A DNA stretch of 64,000 bases from Thermoanaerobaculia bacterium (lineage in GTDB: Bacteria > Acidobacteriota > Thermoanaerobaculia > Multivoradales > UBA5704). The notes under the pieces are model-generated. The model was not told where the DNA came from, made no database searches, and saw nothing but the letters and a program-made list of their open reading frames with translations. Positions 7,907 through 33,519 of this stretch are shown here, in pieces; position 1 is the stretch's first letter; every line of letters begins with the position of its first letter. The stretch lies in contig DATARD010000080.1 in the NCBI GenBank assembly GCA_036264355.1, positions 14,552 to 78,551 on the forward strand, written 5' to 3'. The translations under genes were made by a program, and so were the position numbers.

Positions 7907-8660
7907 ATGCCATCAGAAAAACGGGCCGAGGGTCCCGCGGGGGACACCTCGGCGGCACAATGAAGGGGAAGTTTCTCGCTGGGAGCGCTGGCTCCCTCTG
8001 TGCCGGGCTCGCGCATAGCGTCAGCAGAGAGTCCTCCTCCCGCCGCCACCAGCCCTGAAAGATCTTGCCGGTCTCCACGAGCCGTACCCGCAGCGGTTTC
8101 CATGGCTGCGAACCTTCCACACGCCAGTCTTCCAGATCCACCTCCACGCTCCGCGTATCCATCCGCAGACCGGTGCGCAGGGCTTTGAGGGCGCTCTCTT
8201 TGGCGCTCCAGAGGAGGTTGGCCAGGAGCGGACGTTCTGTGCTCGAAGCTTGAGTGACGAGATCTCTCTCCGCGGCGGTGAAATAGTCCGCCACGAAGGC
8301 GTCGGTCCGCGGTTCGATCAGCTCCAGGTCGCAGCCGAGGGTGGTTCCAAGCGGAGCGAGCATGCAGAGGGCGCGGCCGGCGCGGTGGCTGTAGGAGAGG
8401 GCGACGGGGGCGGCGCCGCCGTCGAGGAGCATTTCCGGGGCTCCGTCGGGGGCAGGGTGGATGGCGATGCGCTCGGGCGCGACCGACTGGCCGAGCCAGG
8501 CCGCCAGAGCTTTCTTGGCGGCCCAGCGGCCGAGACGCCAGTCGGCGCGGCGGTGGGGGATGTGGAGGGTCTGCTGGAAGGCGGCCTCGGACAGCGCGAG
8601 CCAGGTGTCGCCGTCCGGGACGTCGGTGGCTTCAGCGAGGAGGTAGCGAAGGTGGCTCAC
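7869..8660 (-). CDS. 4'-phosphopantetheinyl transferase, Sfp type
   Basis: 263 aa with a GTG start. Contains the WSAKESALKA motif ((W/F)xxKE(S/A)xxK) plus GCDLELI. The 3' end overlaps the hypF 3' end by 38 nt (convergent). Confidence 0.85.
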   Translation of the reverse strand: MSHLRYLLAEATDVPDGDTWLALSEAAFQQTLHIPHRRADWRLGRWAAKKALAAWLGQSVAPERIAIHPAPDGAPEMLLDGGAAPVALSYSHRAGRALCMLAPLGTTLGCDLELIEPRTDAFVADYFTAAERDLVTQASSTERPLLANLLWSAKESALKALRTGLRMDTRSVEVDLEDWRVEGSQPWKPLRVRLVETGKIFQGWWRREEDSLLTLCASPAQREPALPARNFPFIVPPRCPPRDPRPVFLMAFNETPPSPPAPG

Positions 8661-8859
8661 GCAACCGGAGTCTACCGCGGTTGCGATTCTTCCTGGCGCT
8701 CCCTCAACAAAATCGAACAGCCTGTGTCTATTAGATTAGACCGGATCGCTTTGAGCGGCCGGCAGAAACCGGAGAAGGGAGGAACCGGCGAGCCTAGAGA
8801 GCTGCCTCTGAACCCTACAAATCTGAAACTTGGAAAACTTCGAACATGATTACCAATCT

Positions 8860-8888
8860 TTGACATGCAGCACACGCAGGCATACGCT
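8860..8888 (+). promoter_or_regulatory. Candidate sigma70-type promoter for the two-gene module
   Basis: TTGACA (8860-8865), a 17-nt spacer, then TACGCT (8883-8888), which keeps T1, A2 and T6 of TATAAT. It would give a ~170-nt leader before the ATG at 9067. Sequence-only guess. Confidence 0.3.
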
Positions 8889-8938
8889 TTTCACACCTTT
8901 TCACGCTTCGAGCTCTTTGACCTCTTTGACTCTTGACA
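8887..8938 (+). promoter_or_regulatory. Clustered short direct repeats in the leader of the module (possible operator or iterated -35-like boxes)
   Basis: CTTTTCAC(A/G)C occurs twice in tandem (8887-8906). CTCTTTGAC occurs twice in tandem (8913-8930) and is followed by TCTTGACA (8931-8938), giving three TTGAC boxes at ~9-bp spacing. Confidence 0.5.
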
Positions 8939-9066
8939 TACCTTCGGAGGCAGCTCTTTGGGCCCGCCTCAGAGCGGGCTTCGCACCTCCTCGCCTCCGA
9001 CTCAAGGGACACGGGTTGCGCCAGCGGGTGCACTGGGACAGCCCCCATCGCACGAGGAAAACGCAC

Positions 9067-10332
9067 ATGCCATTCATAAGAAATTTCTGGCCGCAAAAGG
9101 GAAACTGCTTCGTCATGATGCCTATGGGTGTCCACAAGCGCGATGGGCAGGACTTCGACTGGGACGAGCACTATCGCGATGTCATTGAGGAAACAGTCAA
9201 AGGAGTTGGCATGACCCCTGTCCGTGCCGACGGAATCTACGGTGGCGGCATGCTCATCGAGAAATTGTGGCAGGGCATTCAAGAAGCCGAAGTGATCATC
9301 GCGGACCTAACGGGCCGGAACCCAAACGTTCTCTATGAAGTCGGACTGGCTCACGTCATCGGCAAGAGGATTCTTATCCTGACGATGAATACGGATGACG
9401 TTCCAGTCGACCTCGGGCAGTTCGCTCAGATTCAATATAAGGAAGGCAGGGGACTCCTGCAGCTTGCCCGCGACTTGGAGAGGCATCTCATCGCTGCACG
9501 CAAGGAGCCTCCGGCCGAGGCGATGCTCATGCCGCTCCGCGGAGCCGGCATCGAAGAGATCCCCGCCAAAGTCCTGTCCGTGATGGAGACATTCGCCATG
9601 GTCGAAGCCCGCGACGGTCGCAAGGGCTTCCTCAGCATTGAGGATTTCGCCTGGACTCGGAGACCAAGAGATCTCACGAGAGTTCTTCAACCAGGGAGAG
9701 AGGTCAAGGGTGCCTTTGTCGTCGATGCCAACGGTCAGCAGAAGTATTCGTTGGCATTTGGTGACAACCCGTGGCCCAAGCTCGAAAAGGACTTTCCTCT
9801 GGGGCACGTGTTTCGTGGCGAGGTCGTCAATGTCAAAGAGGGGATCGGTGCCTGGGTGAACATGAATTACGGAATCCAAGGGTTCATCCCTCAGAGTCAG
9901 CTTCCGAGAGATGTCATGACCGGGAGCGACGTCAAGGCCCGGGTCGTCGAGATCAATCAGGCGAAGCGCGAGGTGAGATTGCATTTCATCGAGAAACTTT
10001 CGGGAGAGTCAGGGAAAATCGACCCGACGTGGCCATTCCGCAGGGGGCAGATGTTTGAGGGCCGCGTCGACAAGATGGCCCCCGACCGAGGCTTTGCCTT
10101 GATCAGGGTCAGCCATGAGGAGAGACAGATCACCGGAATCCTTCCTCAGGTCAAGATGACTCCCATGCTCCGCGACCGCTTCGTCAATCAGGATCTGAGA
10201 GTTGGTGATCCTCTGATGGTCGAAGTCTTGGATGTCGACCCAGCCCGGCAACGGATTTCTTTCCGCGATCGGCCTTTCGGCGAGATCGTCATTCCTCAAC
10301 CTCAGGTCGACATGCTCCAACCTGCGCACTAA
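9067..10332 (+). CDS. Nucleoside 2-deoxyribosyltransferase/TIR-like Rossmannoid domain fused to three S1 RNA-binding domains (421 aa)
   Basis: ATG at 9067 is preceded by GAGGAAA. N-terminus: CFVMMPMG...YRDVIEETVKGVGMTPVRAD...AEVIIADLTGRNPNVLYEVGLAHVIGKRILIL, an NDT/Rcl-like pattern with candidate catalytic E91. S1 domains lie at ~165-232, ~246-307 (GHVFRGEVVNVKEGIGAWVNMNYGIQGFIPQSQL...VKARVVEINQAKREVRL) and ~326-401. Lower GC than the flanks. Confidence 0.85.
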   Translation: MPFIRNFWPQKGNCFVMMPMGVHKRDGQDFDWDEHYRDVIEETVKGVGMTPVRADGIYGGGMLIEKLWQGIQEAEVIIADLTGRNPNVLYEVGLAHVIGKRILILTMNTDDVPVDLGQFAQIQYKEGRGLLQLARDLERHLIAARKEPPAEAMLMPLRGAGIEEIPAKVLSVMETFAMVEARDGRKGFLSIEDFAWTRRPRDLTRVLQPGREVKGAFVVDANGQQKYSLAFGDNPWPKLEKDFPLGHVFRGEVVNVKEGIGAWVNMNYGIQGFIPQSQLPRDVMTGSDVKARVVEINQAKREVRLHFIEKLSGESGKIDPTWPFRRGQMFEGRVDKMAPDRGFALIRVSHEERQITGILPQVKMTPMLRDRFVNQDLRVGDPLMVEVLDVDPARQRISFRDRPFGEIVIPQPQVDMLQPAH

Positions 10333-10342
10333 GGAGAAAACC

Positions 10343-11794
10343 ATGGGTCAGTCACCTGTCGTAACAGTCGGCGCCAAGCGCACGATGGAGTACGTTTTGG
10401 GTTGCCTGTCGTTGTTCAACCGGGGCGCCGAGGAGCTGGACCTGGTCTCGGTAGGTGACTGCATCTCGAAAGCGGCCGAGGTCTACCGGATTCTCAGCAC
10501 GAGCTTCGGGACCAGCTTGGAGGCGGCGGACATCACTCCGCTCCACTCCGGCGAAGCGGTCTTTGCCCGCTCGTCGTTCCACCTTCGGCGTGCCGCCTCC
10601 GCCGGTGTCGATCTACAGCCCTGGTCGACCGGCGACAGTCAGTTCGTCAGCTTCCCGGTCTATCAACTTCTCCTCGATCACCTGCTGGCGACACAGGGGC
10701 AGATCGTGATCGGCGCTTCACAAGGGCGAAGCCTGCTTCGGATCACCTCCACGGACGGCGGCTTCGTGTGCCGCGGCGGCGAGGACCTCGACATCACGCT
10801 TGACGGAACACGCCAGGATGAAAAGAAAAAGAGTCCGCGCGAGTTGGTGACGGAGGCTATGGCTCGGACGGGCTTCCTGCTGTCGGACCGCTGGCGCGAG
10901 GTCGCTGGCCGGCTCGGGCAGTTCGACGACATCGTCCTTGGGCTGGACACCAACATCCTGTATGGCTGCGTCATTACGCAACAGATCCTCGACTCTCTGG
11001 TCTTCACCTGCCATTCCAATGCATCGCCCAACTGGATTCTCTTGGTGGTGCCCAGCACCGTCATGCACGAGCTCGAGCAGGCGGCCAACGGCCGCGATGA
11101 GAAGGGGGAGCTGAGCCTCAGCGGGAGAATGGGATACCGGGCCTTGCAGGAGATTCTCGAGCTCGACCTGGCCAAGGACATCCGAGGAGTCAGCTTGCTG
11201 ATCGCAGGCGAGACCGATCCGATCCTCGATGCTCGCGTCGAGCTGCGAGCGCTTCGCGGCGACGTCCAACGGACCGCGCCGCAGGGCACCCGTTTCCTGC
11301 CCAGGAATTCGTTTGGCGATACGCTGATCCGCGATCAGTTCAAGGGATTCCTTCGCCAGCTCAGCTACCACAAGGGTGCGTTTTTCCTCACGGCTGACAA
11401 GTCGAACAGCGCTCTCGGTCAGGCGGAGGGGCTGCATTCTCTCTATGTGCCGCCGCCGAATGGACGGAGAGCGATCAGCTCGGGAGTCGACCTGGCTCCC
11501 CCACCGGTCAGGTTCGACGAGCAGAACATCTCGATGAACGTGCCGATCGGAAAGATCGTCTACGAGATGGCAGTGCAGTTCGGATCGATCTTTCTGTCGG
11601 GGAACGGGACCTCGATCAAGGTGGGCTGTGACGCGCGCGGCGACTCCTTGGAGCACTGGCTCAAGAGGGAGCTGATCATCGATCAGCTAGATGTTCGGAA
11701 GTTGCTGGCGCACTACCCTCAGTCCGAACGAGTGTCCCTTGAGCAGGCGGAGGCTACCTGGGATACCGAAAACAAGATGGCCATGTCCTGGTAG
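10343..11794 (+). CDS. Alba-like domain fused to a PIN-domain nuclease (483 aa)
   Basis: ATG at 10343 lies 10 nt after the previous stop, with AAGGAG 6 nt upstream. Residues 5-55, PVVTVGAKRTMEYVLGCLSLFNRGAEELDLVSVGDCISKAAEVYRIL, track archaeal Alba (Sso10b) motif for motif. Residues ~195-370 are a PIN domain with the acidic set in LGLDTNIL, VVPSTVMHELEQ, FGDTLIRD and FLTADKSN, closest to the YlaK/PhoH-associated PIN type. Confidence 0.85.
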   Translation: MGQSPVVTVGAKRTMEYVLGCLSLFNRGAEELDLVSVGDCISKAAEVYRILSTSFGTSLEAADITPLHSGEAVFARSSFHLRRAASAGVDLQPWSTGDSQFVSFPVYQLLLDHLLATQGQIVIGASQGRSLLRITSTDGGFVCRGGEDLDITLDGTRQDEKKKSPRELVTEAMARTGFLLSDRWREVAGRLGQFDDIVLGLDTNILYGCVITQQILDSLVFTCHSNASPNWILLVVPSTVMHELEQAANGRDEKGELSLSGRMGYRALQEILELDLAKDIRGVSLLIAGETDPILDARVELRALRGDVQRTAPQGTRFLPRNSFGDTLIRDQFKGFLRQLSYHKGAFFLTADKSNSALGQAEGLHSLYVPPPNGRRAISSGVDLAPPPVRFDEQNISMNVPIGKIVYEMAVQFGSIFLSGNGTSIKVGCDARGDSLEHWLKRELIIDQLDVRKLLAHYPQSERVSLEQAEATWDTENKMAMSW

Positions 11795-11799
11795 GACCT

Positions 11800-11818
11800 A
11801 TGCGGATGGAGGGTTCGA

Positions 11819-11833
<15 letters not shown>
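11800..11833. terminator. Possible bidirectional hairpin between convergent genes
   Basis: ATGCGGATGGAG (11800-11811) pairs with CTCTACCCGCAT (11822-11833) at 10 of 12 positions around a 10-nt loop. It spans the ACC-like stop codon. There is no clear U-tract. Confidence 0.3.
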
Positions 11834-16774
<4,941 letters not shown>

Positions 16775-16803
16775 CCTTCCGGGCTCCAAGAGCCCTTGTA
16801 TGC

Positions 16804-17343
16804 TCACAAGGCTCCCATCGCGGCTTGCAGGGGCGCCAGCCGTTCGGGATCGATCCCTCCGGGCAGCTCGACGGTGCGGTAGCCGGTGAGAGTCACATAG
16901 AGGTTGCCCTCGTCGTCGACCACGTCGGCGTCCACCGCGCCGTCGTCCTCCCGGGTCCGGGCGACCGCGGTGAGCCGTCCGCCGTTCCCCGGGCGCAGCC
17001 GGCTGACCCGGTCGACGTGCAGCGGCAGGGCCATCTTGCCATGAGTCCCCAGCTCGCCGACGCCCGCGGTCTGGAAGCATAGCTCGATGAGCCGCGGCTC
17101 CATCAGCGTCGGCCTGTCCTGCGGCTGGTGGTCAGGCGGCAGCGCGTCCGCCATCCGTCCGGCGACGCCGTCGCCCGACCGCCAGGCGCTCTCCATCACC
17201 TGATAGGCCGGACCATGGAAGTAGATGCGGTAGATGTCCTCGGCGCCGACGCCCGGGGCATCGGGGTGCCGCCCCCCCGCGTAGTGTTGCGGGGGTGGGT
17301 CGGGAGCCGCGTTGCGGCAAGGATTTACGACGATTCGCGGCAT
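16804..17343 (-). CDS. Stand-alone hotdog protein resembling the C-terminal half of a PKS dehydratase (PS-DH) domain
   Basis: 179 aa from ATG 17343: IYRIYFHGPAYQV...PRLIELCFQTAG...LPLHVDRVSRL...VVDDEGNLYVTLTGYRTVEL. The FHGPxFQ-like and LxxxFQ motifs are typical of the second hotdog of PS-DH. It ends 30 nt upstream of the ACC-like start. Confidence 0.65.
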   Translation of the reverse strand: MPRIVVNPCRNAAPDPPPQHYAGGRHPDAPGVGAEDIYRIYFHGPAYQVMESAWRSGDGVAGRMADALPPDHQPQDRPTLMEPRLIELCFQTAGVGELGTHGKMALPLHVDRVSRLRPGNGGRLTAVARTREDDGAVDADVVDDEGNLYVTLTGYRTVELPGGIDPERLAPLQAAMGAL

Positions 17344-33079: not shown

Positions 33080-33519
33080 CCGGACGGGAGGGAGCGCGAG
33101 CCGGACGGGAGGGAGCGCGAGCCGGACTGGAGGGAGTGAGAGCCGGACTGGAGGGAACGATAGCCGGACTGGAGGGAACGAGAGCCGGACTGGAGGGAGT
33201 GAGGACCGGACTGGAGGGAGTGAGAGCCGGATGGAGGGAACGAGAGCCGGACTGGAGGGAAGGAGGACCGGACTGGAGGGAACGAGGACCGGACTGGAGG
33301 GAGCAAGGGCCGGACTGGAGGGAGCGAGGGCCGGACTGGAGGGACCGAGAACCGGACTGGAGGGAGTGAGAGCCGGACTGGAGGGAGCGAGGACCGGACT
33401 GGAGGGAACGAGAGCCGGACTGGAGGGAACGAGGGCCGGACTGGAGGGAGCGTGAGCCGGACTGGAGGGAGCGAGGACCGGACTGGAGGGAGCGTGAGCC
33501 GGATGACGGGGAGCGAGAG
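33080..33519 (+). repeat. Tandem repeat, ~21 units of 21 bp (CCGGACTGGAGGGAGCGAGAG), purine-rich on + strand
   Basis: Units start at 33080, 33101, 33122 ... 33499. One unit (33227) is 20 nt. Every unit carries GGAGGGAG (SD-like). The last unit, ccggATGacggggagcgagag, supplies the NmrA-like start codon. Confidence 0.9.

What the first reader, a model, noticed from the sequence alone, without database searches (positions are those of the whole stretch)
8661..11833. Low-GC two-gene island: NDT/TIR-like + 3xS1 protein coupled to an Alba + PIN nuclease; candidate undescribed RNA-centred conflict system
Setting: between the PPTase start (8660) and the ACC-like stop (11819) the composition drops visibly, to roughly mid-50s % GC by eye against ~70% in the flanks. 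Exactly two co-directional genes fill the gap. They are separated by 10 nt, with AAGGAG before the second ATG, which points to one operon.

Gene A (421 aa): the N-terminal ~150 aa carry the nucleoside 2-deoxyribosyltransferase/Rcl-type Rossmannoid pattern (CFVMMPMG ... AEVIIADLTGRNPNVLYEVGLAHVIGKRILIL, candidate catalytic E91). That puts it in the same broad class as the TIR/SLOG nucleotide-processing effector domains. Three S1/OB RNA-binding domains follow.

Gene B (483 aa): it opens with a segment that tracks archaeal Alba/Sso10b almost position for position. From memory, PVVTVGAKRTMEYVLGCLSLFNRGAEELDLVSVGDCISKAAEVYRIL aligns with [47 protein letters not shown]. It then carries a PIN nuclease with the full acidic set (LDTN, HELE, GDTL, TADK).

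Why it is unusual: Alba is rare in bacteria. I know of no described Alba-PIN fusion, and no named defence or TA system with this gene pair.

Inference: a horizontally acquired two-component system that reads RNA (S1, Alba) and degrades nucleotides or RNA (NDT-like hydrolase, PIN). It could be anti-phage, abortive-infection or toxin-antitoxin-like.
Basis: partly seen in the sequence, partly recalled or inferred. Interest (0 to 1): 0.85.

Follow-up and report, generated by a model that had tools for sequence, protein, structure and literature searches.

The report
Mobile two-gene RNA-targeting defence candidate
A low-GC insert carries two coupled genes, an RNA-binding enzyme of the TIR/nucleoside-hydrolase class and a rare Alba-PIN RNA nuclease, that recur together in distant bacteria and look like an undescribed anti-virus module, though no function has been tested.

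Summary
Gene A (9067-10332, 421 aa) and gene B (10343-11794, 483 aa) fill a low-GC insert: A 56% and B 62% GC, against 68-71% in the flanks. They are translationally coupled.

A has an N-terminal domain of the NDT/Rcl/TIR-like class with its catalytic Glu (E91) conserved, followed by three S1 domains. B consists of Alba, a small α/β domain, a PIN domain with four invariant acidic residues, and a C-terminal domain.

The Alba-PIN family is rare: about 110 clusters among 1.84 billion representatives. It is patchily spread over bacteria and archaea.

- In 8 of 20 unbiased genome loci, an NDT-like+S1 gene sits immediately upstream of B. Acidobacteriota carry the 3×S1 form and Bacteroidota carry a TPR+S1 form.
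- An archaeal clade instead fuses a cold-shock OB domain to B.
- Each gene also occurs without the other in defence-like or mobile settings. B lies inside a type III-B CRISPR locus, next to RT-Cas1, and on a conjugative element. A sits beside NACHT+ATPase genes or a caspase.
- PADLOC, Pfam, NCBIfam and the literature searches returned no named system.

Best reading: a mobile, RNA-directed abortive-infection-type module with two enzymatic effectors. The mechanism is inferred, not shown.

The parts
8661..9066 (+). 406-nt low-GC leader upstream of gene A. It holds a 26-nt inverted repeat (8787-8812 / 8943-8968).
   Evidence: GC 56.2%. Inverted repeat I2, 85% complementary. No Rfam family, no sigma-70-like promoter, no terminator. 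The leader is not conserved: in L001-L003 gene A abuts or overlaps the upstream gene.
9067..10332 (+). Gene A, 421 aa: NDT/Rcl/TIR-like domain followed by three S1 domains.
   Evidence: ORF. About 48 full-length homologues. AF2 model with pLDDT 86.6.
9067..9519 (+). Gene A residues 1-151: Rossmannoid N-glycosidase/NADase-type domain of the NDT/Rcl/TIR-like class. Predicted catalytic residue E91.
   Evidence: Profile against PDB: Rcl/DNPH1 1e-7, Cap12 TIR-STING 5e-3, NDT 0.37. PADLOC 'Effector TIR' 5e-9. Pfam PF05014 17.1 bits, below the cut-off. E75 invariant; E91, D80 and N87 conserved in at least 90%.
9559..9750 (+). S1/OB domain 1 (gene A residues about 165-228).
   Evidence: Pfam S1, 3 stretches. 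OB strands in the AF2 model. Foldseek hits to bS1.
9796..9996 (+). S1/OB domain 2 (gene A residues about 244-310).
   Evidence: Best Pfam S1 stretch, residues 244-305. Model and Foldseek.
10051..10269 (+). S1/OB domain 3 (gene A residues about 329-401).
   Evidence: Pfam and NCBIfam S1-type matches at 353-402. Model.
10331..10336 (+). Ribosome-binding site AAGGAG for gene B, overlapping the stop codon of gene A.
   Evidence: Sequence TAAGGAGAAAACCATG.
10343..11794 (+). Gene B, 483 aa: Alba, small α/β domain, PIN nuclease, C-terminal domain.
   Evidence: ORF. 114 homologues. AF2 model with pLDDT 86.7 and pTM 0.89.
10343..10612 (+). Alba domain (gene B residues 1-90). The basic pair K10-R11 sits where Alba has its nucleic-acid-binding lysines.
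   Evidence: Pfam Alba 25.7 bits against cut-off 25. NCBIfam AlbA 2.7e-8. Family profile against PDB Alba 3e-11, with GKRT aligned to GNKP/GKKP. Foldseek TM 0.75-0.89.
10640..10822 (+). Small α/β middle domain (gene B residues about 100-160), function unknown. Probably also present in the archaeal 363-aa relatives that lack Alba (inferred from their query coverage).
   Evidence: Secondary structure H104-118, E120-145. Conserved Y107/L109/L110. The PIN-only relatives cover 58-73% of the query.
10919..11452 (+). PIN nuclease domain (gene B residues about 193-370) with catalytic D202, E243/E245, D326 and D352.
   Evidence: All four acidic positions invariant in 40 sequences. Pfam PIN_4 19.3 bits here, and 22-30 bits in relatives. 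Foldseek hits to the PIN domains of 3i8o, 5f4h/PINA and phage PhoH.
11495..11791 (+). C-terminal α/β domain (gene B residues about 385-483), function unknown.
   Evidence: Conserved G403, E408, D430, W439 and Y458. No Pfam or PDB sequence match.

Best explanation
This is a horizontally mobile, two-gene, RNA-directed conflict module, most likely anti-phage and of the abortive-infection type. It combines two enzymes, each tethered to RNA-binding domains.

Proposed mechanism:
- Protein A binds single-stranded RNA through its three S1/OB domains.
- A also carries a catalytically competent N-glycosidase/NADase-type domain of the NDT/Rcl/TIR-like class (Glu91). This domain is proposed to hydrolyse NAD+ or a nucleotide.
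- Protein B binds RNA through its Alba domain and cleaves it with a four-acid PIN endonuclease.
- The two proteins are made from one translationally coupled operon. They are proposed to act on the same RNA or ribonucleoprotein target, with A supplying the OB-fold RNA grip that archaeal relatives of B carry in cis as a fused cold-shock domain.
- The expected outcome is RNA cleavage plus nucleotide/NAD+ destruction, which arrests the infected cell.

What is shown: the domain identities, the conservation of catalytic residues, the operon structure, the recurrent adjacency in two phyla, the rarity and patchy distribution, and the defence or mobile-element contexts.

What is inferred: the RNA target, the substrate of the NDT-like domain, the physical cooperation of A and B, and the defence phenotype.
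For: Domains and catalytic residues.

Operon coupling: a 10-nt gap here. In Bacteroidota loci the two ORFs overlap by 4 nt or lie up to 18 nt apart.

Recurrent adjacency:
- 8 of 20 unbiased B loci with at least 3 kb of upstream sequence have an NDT-like gene immediately upstream. These fall in two phyla with different middle parts: 3xS1 against TPR+S1.
- Further pairs occur in L028, L032, L034, L040 and L119.
- Identities of A and B homologues to the window proteins co-vary, Spearman 0.97 over 13 pairs.

OB fold in cis: a C-terminal cold-shock domain is fused to B in an archaeal clade.

Functional equivalence of the NDT-like domain with TIR: the one A homologue that lost the Glu (P0135, E to A) has gained a canonical TIR_2 domain. 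The same NDT-like domain is fused to SIR2 (ThsA-like) and to TPR-S in other proteins.

Defence or mobile contexts:
- B lies inside a type III-B CRISPR locus, beside RT-Cas1 and an 18-repeat array, on a conjugative element, and beside a recombinase+CHAT, a NERD-UvrD helicase and a dCTP-deaminase-like gene.
- A lies beside NACHT-pentapeptide plus a GajA/AriA-like ATPase in four loci, including the isolate Kibdelosporangium aridum.
- A caspase follows the pair in L003 and follows A alone in L042.

Rarity and horizontal transfer: about 110 clusters in 1.84e9 representatives. Low GC and no flank synteny.
Against: - No experiment exists, and no hit to any validated defence system.
- The window's own flanks are metabolic (HypF, PPTase, multidomain ACC, PKS-DH). 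No integrase, tRNA or terminal repeats mark the island.
- 12 of the 20 unbiased B loci with enough upstream sequence lack A, and A occurs without B. The pairing is therefore facultative, and cooperation on one target is an inference.
- The closest sequence relatives of A's enzymatic domain are nucleotide hydrolases (Rcl/DNPH1), not proven NADases. Pfam thresholds for PF05014, and for PIN_4 in this protein, are not reached.
- No homologue was found in 2.9 million viral contigs. That neither supports nor refutes a defence role.
Confidence: 0.55

Rival explanations
1. Signal relay, analogous to Thoeris or type III CRISPR. A senses RNA through its S1 domains, and its TIR-like domain converts NAD+ or a nucleotide into a small-molecule signal. 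B is a signal-gated RNase whose N-terminal half (Alba plus middle domain) or C-terminal domain binds the signal. In other genomes the same effector would be driven by Cas10.
For: - The best whole-length structural neighbour of B is SiRe_0806 of Sulfolobus islandicus, solved in complex with cA4 (Foldseek E 7e-7).
- B relatives lie inside a type III-B CRISPR locus between cmr genes and cas6, where ancillary effectors sit. They also lie next to RT-Cas1 and an array, and 2.9 kb from a 4-repeat mini-array.
- A's domain belongs to the class whose TIR members make signalling nucleotides (established knowledge of Thoeris).
Against: - No CARF, SAVED, SLOG, Macro or STING domain is detected in B or in its divergent relatives.
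- The SiRe_0806 match has TM of only 0.36-0.45 and 12% identity. It may reflect generic Rossmann-like (PIN against CARF) similarity. No sequence-level link was found, and the nature of SiRe_0806 could not be checked in the literature.
- Many B genes stand alone with no candidate signal generator nearby.
- A's nearest relatives are hydrolases.
Confidence: 0.2
2. Toxin-antitoxin-like pair. B is a PIN toxin, and A holds it in check, for example by competing for RNA or binding B. The NDT-like domain would act as a second toxin or a regulator.
For: - PIN domains are the commonest type II toxins (PMC5499597).
- The operon is tightly coupled, with the partner gene upstream.
- The pair is mobile and patchily distributed.
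Against: - The upstream partner is a 421-aa enzyme with a conserved catalytic Glu, not a small DNA-binding antitoxin.
- B is found alone in most lineages, so it is not lethal without A.
- Gene order is inverted in L040 and L119, with gaps of 166 and about 800 nt.
Confidence: 0.1
3. Housekeeping RNA processing. The enzyme would be Alba-PIN acting as a protein-only RNase P-like or rRNA-maturation nuclease, with an S1 helper.
For: - Alba relatives (Rpp20/Rpp25) are RNase P/MRP subunits; weak Foldseek hits to 6cwx and 6lt7.
- NCBI names one homologue 'ribonuclease P subunit p25 family'.
- PIN-like nucleases perform RNA maturation (Nob1, Utp24; PMC5499597).
Against: - The family is very rare and phyletically patchy.
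- It has foreign composition here.
- It shows no conserved housekeeping neighbourhood and repeated defence or mobile contexts.
Confidence: 0.05

Closest known systems
Archaeal Alba/Sso10b (PF01918) and eukaryotic Rpp20/Rpp25
   Same: The N-terminal 90 residues of B are a true Alba domain by sequence profile (3e-11) and by fold (TM up to 0.89). The basic pair in the β1-α1 loop is retained.
   Different: Here the domain is fused to a nuclease, in a bacterium, within a 483-aa multidomain protein. Known Alba proteins are small stand-alone chromatin or RNA-binding proteins.
PIN_4-type PIN nucleases (PhoH2 PIN, SMG6/Swt1, archaeal PINA and MJ 3i8o) and VapC toxins
   Same: The same four-acid active site and fold, predicted to be a metal-dependent RNase.
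   Different: There is no PhoH or ATPase partner domain and no small antitoxin. A long helical insertion lies within the PIN domain. The N-terminal (Alba plus α/β) and C-terminal domains are unique. The 2017 PIN census does not mention Alba.
Rcl/DNPH1 and nucleoside 2-deoxyribosyltransferases (PF05014)
   Same: The N-domain of A shares the core motif ...A(D/E)hT....V.YE(L/V)G.A..., with the catalytic Glu aligned.
   Different: It scores below the Pfam threshold, is fused to RNA-binding domains, and occurs in conflict-system contexts. The substrate is unknown.
TIR and TIR-like NADase defence effectors: CBASS TIR-STING Cap12, Thoeris ThsB, and the DUF4062 'Swarozyc' system (bioRxiv 10.64898/2026.05.01.722283)
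   Same: A Rossmannoid domain with a single catalytic Glu, attached to variable auxiliary or sensor domains and found in defence islands. PADLOC's 'Effector TIR' model matches it. The Cap12 match is at 5e-3. One homologue swaps the domain for a canonical TIR_2.
   Different: There is no Pfam TIR, TIR_2 or DUF4062 match. The auxiliary module is an S1 array, an RNA binder. No STING, SAVED or ThsA partner is present.
Type III CRISPR ancillary RNases (Csm6/Csx1) and the cA4-binding protein SiRe_0806 (PDB 9jxw/9jxx)
   Same: A B homologue occupies the ancillary-gene position in a type III-B locus. SiRe_0806 is the top structural neighbour of B.
   Different: No CARF or HEPN domain is detectable. 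In the window there is no CRISPR-Cas at all, and the neighbour is A.

Membership tests
Alba (PF01918) | Profile-HMM match at or above the curated threshold | tested here: met
   25.7 bits against cut-off 25 for the window protein. 38.1 bits for homologue P0041. The family profile hits PDB Alba chains at 3e-11.
Alba (PF01918) | β-α-β-α-β-β (IF3-C-like) fold | tested here: met
   The AF2 model has E6-9, H14-26, E31-37, H38-55, E58-69, E72-82. Foldseek TM 0.75-0.89 and rmsd 1.1-2.6 Å to Alba structures.
Alba (PF01918) | Basic residues in the β1-α1 loop used for nucleic-acid binding | tested here: met
   GAKRT in the window protein and GKRT in the consensus align with GNKP/GKKP of Alba. Binding itself was not tested.
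PIN domain (PIN_4-like) | Four conserved acidic residues forming the metal site | tested here: met
   D202, E243/E245, D326 and D352 are invariant in 40 homologues and in the PIN-only relatives.
PIN domain (PIN_4-like) | Pfam PF13638 match above the gathering score | tested here: inconclusive
   19.3 against 21.9 bits for the window protein. 22.2-30 bits for relatives P0041, P0097 and P0105.
PIN domain (PIN_4-like) | PIN fold | tested here: met
   Foldseek hits to 3i8o (TMt 0.74), PINA 5f4h and phage PhoH-family PIN.
Nucleoside 2-deoxyribosyltransferase/Rcl (PF05014) | Pfam match above the gathering score | tested here: not met
   17.1 against 28.8 bits. It is therefore not filed as a PF05014 member, only as a member of the wider NDT/TIR-like class.
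Nucleoside 2-deoxyribosyltransferase/Rcl (PF05014) | Catalytic Glu in the ...YE(L)G... motif after the third strand | tested here: met
   E91 aligns with the Rcl Glu in the profile-PDB alignment at E 1e-7. It is conserved in at least 90% of homologues.
Canonical TIR domain (PF01582/PF13676) | Pfam TIR or TIR_2 match | tested here: not met
   No TIR family is listed at E up to 1. Only the PADLOC 'Effector TIR' model (5e-9) and Cap12 (5e-3) match.
S1 RNA-binding domain (PF00575) | Profile match and OB fold, three copies | tested here: met
   62 bits against cut-off 22, three stretches. Three OB barrels in the model. bS1 is the top Foldseek hit at 5e-16.
Named anti-phage systems in PADLOC-DB v2 | Both proteins match component models of one system | tested here: not met
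   B has no hit. A hits only a generic TIR effector model. Relatives behave the same way. DefenseFinder could not be run.
Thoeris | A TIR ThsB plus a ThsA effector with a SLOG or Macro sensor | tested here: not met
   No SLOG, Macro or SIR2 domain in B.
Type III CRISPR ancillary effector | A CARF or SAVED sensor domain | tested here: not met
   No CARF or SAVED domain in Pfam, NCBIfam or PADLOC for B or its relatives. There is only a low-TM structural resemblance to a cA4-binding protein.
Type III CRISPR ancillary effector | Recurrent location within or next to type III cas operons | tested here: inconclusive
   1 locus lies inside a III-B operon, 1 lies beside RT-Cas1 and an array, and 1 lies near a mini-array, out of about 35 loci. 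The window has none.
VapBC-type type II toxin-antitoxin | A small upstream antitoxin with a DNA-binding domain | tested here: not met
   The upstream gene encodes a 421-aa enzyme with S1 domains.
Swarozyc (DUF4062 TIR-like NADase) | A DUF4062 domain | tested here: not met
   No DUF4062 hit at E up to 1. The family is described in the preprint read.

The most novel reading that the evidence does not exclude
Alba-PIN proteins are a new class of ligand-gated RNase that lacks CARF or SAVED domains. In this operon the ligand would be made by an RNA-triggered TIR-like enzyme (protein A). In other genomes it would be made by Cas10 of type III CRISPR systems. That would make this a CRISPR-independent, S1-based RNA sensor feeding the same kind of second-messenger effector.
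Probability: 0.15. Interest if true: 0.85.

Novelty: new variant of a known kind. Interest (0 to 1): 0.65.

Why it matters
If the pair is a working defence module, four things follow.
- It would add an Alba domain, otherwise known from archaeal chromatin and RNase P/MRP, to the repertoire of bacterial immune sensors.
- It would show a TIR/NDT-class enzyme tethered directly to RNA by S1 domains.
- It would give a compact two-gene system in which RNA recognition is protein-based rather than guide-based.
- The recurrence of the Alba-PIN gene inside type III CRISPR loci offers a testable link between CRISPR signalling and a CARF-less effector.

The A family is present in a cultured actinomycete, Kibdelosporangium aridum, so part of the system is experimentally accessible.

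Tried and rejected
- **Leader RNA element.** The Rfam scan of 8400-12100 found nothing. There was no sigma-70-like promoter, and terminators did not exceed the shuffle expectation. The leader is not conserved in relatives.
- **Island borders.** No tRNA lies in 1-30 kb. No convincing terminal repeats were found: the 36-nt, 72% inverted pair 8994/11715 lies inside the unit and was judged to be chance. There is no synteny of PPTase, ACC or HypF with L001-L003.
- **Sequence-level link of the PIN and C-terminal half to solved structures.** None was found with the single sequence, the family profile, or a profile that included the archaeal PIN-only relatives.
- **Identity of SiRe_0806.** Four literature searches and one review gave nothing. 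A Csm6-like query did not retrieve it from the PDB. The cA4 link therefore rests on the PDB title alone.
- **Phage origin.** No relative exists in IMG/VR. BFVD gave only a PhoH-type PIN and SpoVS.
- **Other N-terminal sensors on this PIN clade.** Pfam found nothing such as CARF in ten divergent relatives.
- **Structural neighbours of A's N-domain.** The three S1 domains swamped the Foldseek list, and the model could not be cropped. The profile-PDB search was used instead.
- **Prior description.** Nine full-text searches and five papers read turned up no Alba-PIN fusion and no NDT-S1/Alba-PIN pair.
- **Chance adjacency.** Rejected because of recurrence in two phyla with different partner architectures.

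Full report
**1. Observation**

Between the start of the PPTase gene (8660, minus strand) and the stop of the ACC-like gene (11819, minus strand) there are two co-directional ORFs on the plus strand. Homologue alignments fix the starts at ATG 9067 for gene A (421 aa, stop at 10332) and ATG 10343 for gene B (483 aa, stop at 11794). The junction reads TAAGGAGAAAACCATG, so the Shine-Dalgarno sequence of B overlaps the stop codon of A and the gap is 10 nt.

GC content is 56.2% in the 406-nt leader, 56.4% in A and 61.8% in B. It is 68.1%, 68.6% and 71.0% in HypF, PPTase and ACC, and the window mean is 68.2%. The composition drop is real, although B is nearer 62% than the mid-50s. Other ORFs listed in the interval overlap A and B on other frames, which is usual in GC-rich DNA.

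**2. Protein A**

Pfam finds three S1 stretches (62 bits against a cut-off of 22). It also gives a sub-threshold Nuc_deoxyrib_tr match (17.1 against 28.8 bits) at residues 68-112. PADLOC's 'Effector TIR' model matches residues 33-149 at 5e-9.

A profile of the N-domain was built from 18 homologues plus six Bacteroidota variants. It hits Rcl/DNPH1 structures at 1e-7, the TIR-STING protein Cap12 at 5e-3, and nucleoside deoxyribosyltransferases at 0.4-1.7. In that alignment the motif AEVIIADLTGRNPNVLYEVGLAH lies on ADVVVAEVTQPSLGVGYELGRAV of Rcl. E91 therefore corresponds to what I recall as the catalytic glutamate of Rcl. E75 is invariant, and E73, D80, N87, Y90 and E91 are conserved in at least 90% of 38 homologues.

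The AlphaFold model (pLDDT 86.6) shows a Rossmann-like α/β domain at residues 13-146 followed by three OB barrels. Foldseek returns ribosomal protein bS1 first, at 5e-16. The domain is thus a member of the NDT/Rcl/TIR-like class, but it is not a Pfam-threshold member of PF05014 or of TIR.

One natural variant is informative. Homologue P0135 has Ala in place of E91 and has gained a canonical TIR_2 domain at its C-terminus. This suggests the two domains do equivalent jobs.

**3. Protein B**

Alba reaches the Pfam threshold (25.7 against 25 bits) and PIN_4 falls just short (19.3 against 21.9 bits). NCBIfam gives AlbA at 2.7e-8.
- D202 (LDTN)
- E243 and E245 (HELE)
- D326 (GDT)
- D352 (TADK)

The family profile hits archaeal Alba structures at 3e-11. 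The AlphaFold model is confident (pLDDT 86.7, pTM 0.89). It resolves four parts:
- Alba, residues 1-90
- a small α/β domain, residues about 100-160
- PIN, residues about 193-370
- a C-terminal α/β domain, residues about 385-483

Foldseek superposes the N-terminus on Alba proteins (TM 0.75-0.89). It also matches PIN domains: 3i8o, PINA 5f4h, and a phage PhoH-family protein.

The top whole-length hit is SiRe_0806 of Sulfolobus islandicus, a structure deposited with cA4 bound (E 7e-7, TM 0.36-0.45, 12% identity). I could not find out what that protein is, and no sequence-level link exists. I treat it as a lead only.

**4. The family and its partners**

The Alba-PIN family is rare. A profile search of 1.84 billion cluster representatives finds 357 hits, 110 of them below 1e-30, and roughly 55-60 full-length clusters. 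It is scattered across the following groups:
- Bacteria: Acidobacteriota, Bacteroidota, Desulfobacterota, Chloroflexota, Actinomycetota, Firmicutes, Patescibacteria and Cloacimonadota.
- Archaea: Brockarchaeota, Thermoproteota and Thermoplasmata.

In an unbiased set of 25 genome loci found through B alone, 20 have at least 3 kb of upstream sequence. In 8 of those 20, the gene immediately upstream carries the same NDT-like domain (HMM scan).
- In the three Acidobacteriota loci it is the full NDT+3xS1 protein.
- In five Bacteroidota loci, and in a further metagenomic locus, it is a 418-451-aa protein with the same N-domain, TPR repeats and one S1 domain.

Starting from A instead, the pair is seen again in L032, L034, L040 and L119. 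The last two have the order B then A. About ten more pairs are implied by A and B homologues that share source and contig length. Across 13 pairs, the identities of the two proteins to the window's proteins co-vary (Spearman 0.97).

An archaeal clade of B carries a C-terminal cold-shock domain. So an OB-fold RNA binder is linked to Alba-PIN in three independent ways: a 3xS1 neighbour, a TPR-S1 neighbour, and a fused CSD. This is the main basis for proposing that A and B work on the same RNA.

**5. Each gene also lives without the other, in conflict-type surroundings**

B is found:
- inside a type III-B CRISPR-Cas locus, in the order cmr2, cmr3, RAMP, cmr5, RAMP, a Csm6-like gene, then B, then cas6, cas2, cas1;
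- 1.3 kb from an RT-Cas1 fusion with an 18-repeat array;
- 2.9 kb from a 4-repeat mini-array, next to an E1-like ThiF gene;
- among conjugation genes (Replic_Relax, TraG-like);
- beside a serine recombinase and a CHAT protease, a NERD-UvrD helicase, and a dCTP-deaminase-like gene.

A is found:
- downstream of a NACHT-pentapeptide protein and a GajA/AriA-like ATPase in four loci, including the isolate Kibdelosporangium aridum;
- next to a ResIII-HNH helicase, a membrane protein and a caspase.

A caspase also follows the pair in L003.

The NDT-like domain itself recurs fused to SIR2 (ThsA-like), to TPR-S, and in about 375-aa proteins that match PADLOC's TIR effector model.

No Alba-PIN homologue was found in viral contigs. 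None of these contexts is a conserved housekeeping operon.

**6. The window's own setting**

The flanks are metabolic: HypF, a PPTase, a 1753-aa multidomain acetyl-CoA-carboxylase-like protein and a PKS dehydratase. The closest relatives of the pair (77% and 72% identity for B) sit in unrelated flanks. There is no tRNA, integrase or clear terminal repeat. The leader has no Rfam match, no consensus promoter and no conservation.

Together with the GC drop, this fits an old or scarless horizontal insertion rather than a recognisable mobile element.

**7. Mechanism**

Shown here:
- two predicted active enzymes, each with RNA-binding domains;
- one operon;
- recurrent pairing;
- mobility;
- defence-type neighbours.

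Inferred:
- A grips single-stranded RNA with its S1 array, and its Glu91 domain hydrolyses NAD+ or a nucleotide.
- B binds RNA through Alba and cuts it with PIN.
- Together they arrest an infected cell.

I give this 0.55.

The most interesting rival, at 0.2, is a relay in which A's TIR-like domain makes a signal that gates B. It is supported by the CRISPR-locus occurrences and the cA4-protein resemblance. It is weakened by the absence of any recognisable sensor domain in B, by the low TM-score, and by many stand-alone B genes. A toxin-antitoxin reading (0.1) and a housekeeping reading (0.05) fit the data poorly. The rival section gives the reasons.

**8. Comparison with known systems and novelty**

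The parts belong to known superfamilies: Alba, PIN_4-like PIN, S1, and NDT/TIR-like. The logic resembles known TIR-type and PIN-type defence effectors, including the recently described DUF4062 'Swarozyc' NADase.

Three things were not found anywhere searched: the Alba-PIN fusion, the NDT-like+S1 architecture, and their pairing. The sources checked were Pfam, NCBIfam, PADLOC v2, the 2017 PIN census, and nine full-text searches. I could not run DefenseFinder, and subscription-only literature was not searchable.

I classify it as a new variant of a known kind and score interest at 0.65. It is a solid, conserved and apparently undescribed candidate system with an unusual sensor domain and a testable CRISPR link. 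It has no functional data, and its distribution is rare.

Noticed in passing
L026 1-13333 (also L027): A complete type III-B CRISPR-Cas locus (cmr2, cmr3, RAMP, cmr5, RAMP, a Csm6-like gene, cas6, cas2, cas1). An Alba-PIN gene and a small DUF2283 pair sit between the effector and adaptation modules.
   Followed up: partly
L004 10864-14650: An RT-Cas1 fusion (group II intron-type RT plus Cas1) with an 18-repeat CRISPR array, 1.3 kb downstream of an Alba-PIN gene in a Desulfobacteraceae MAG.
   Followed up: partly
L118 3635-9209; also L039, L036, L043, L038: A conserved three-gene cluster: a NACHT-pentapeptide protein (~800 aa), a GajA/AriA-like ATPase (~645 aa), and the NDT-3xS1 protein, with no Alba-PIN. 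It is present in the cultured Kibdelosporangium aridum. A TIR_2-WD40 gene lies nearby.
   Followed up: partly
L117 7001-8998 (protein P0135): A gene A homologue whose predicted catalytic Glu is replaced by Ala and which has gained a C-terminal canonical TIR_2 domain. A HicB-like gene lies upstream and there is no Alba-PIN. It comes from the same JGI sample (3300036831) that holds the contig carrying the window's gene B.
   Followed up: partly
L001 6719-7982: In the closest genomic relative (Holophagales MAG), gene A is split into two overlapping ORFs (258 and 172 aa). This is either a frameshift pseudogene or an assembly error. Gene B is intact.
   Followed up: no
L015 3939-11098; L020, L023, L024 likewise: In Bacteroidota the pair is preceded by a TPR histidine kinase and a LuxR-type response regulator. 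It is followed by a DUF4407 coiled-coil protein (L015, L020) or by a second NDT-like protein fused to TPR-S (L023). This may be a larger regulated cluster.
   Followed up: partly
L115 3929-4160 (also L116): A four-copy 25-nt repeat (GAAGCAATCAAGAGATAATAGAGAG) with 41-44-nt spacers, which looks like a CRISPR mini-array. No cas genes are in view. It lies upstream of an E1-like ThiF gene and an Alba-PIN-CSD gene.
   Followed up: no
window 33250-33500: A tandem array of about ten 24-nt units (CCGGACTGGAGGGAGCGAGGRC). It was picked up by a crude CRISPR-like scan. It is a plain tandem repeat and may encode an 8-residue peptide repeat.
   Followed up: no
window 8787-8812 / 8943-8968: A 26-nt inverted repeat (85% complementary, arms 130 nt apart) in the leader of gene A. 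It could form a long hairpin in the 5' UTR. There is no Rfam match and no conservation in relatives.
   Followed up: partly
window 11819-17080 (minus strand): A 1753-aa single-chain protein resembling a eukaryote-type acetyl-CoA carboxylase (biotin carboxylase, BCCP, ACC_central, carboxyltransferase). It sits next to a PKS dehydratase gene and a PPTase, possibly as part of a lipid or polyketide cluster.
   Followed up: no
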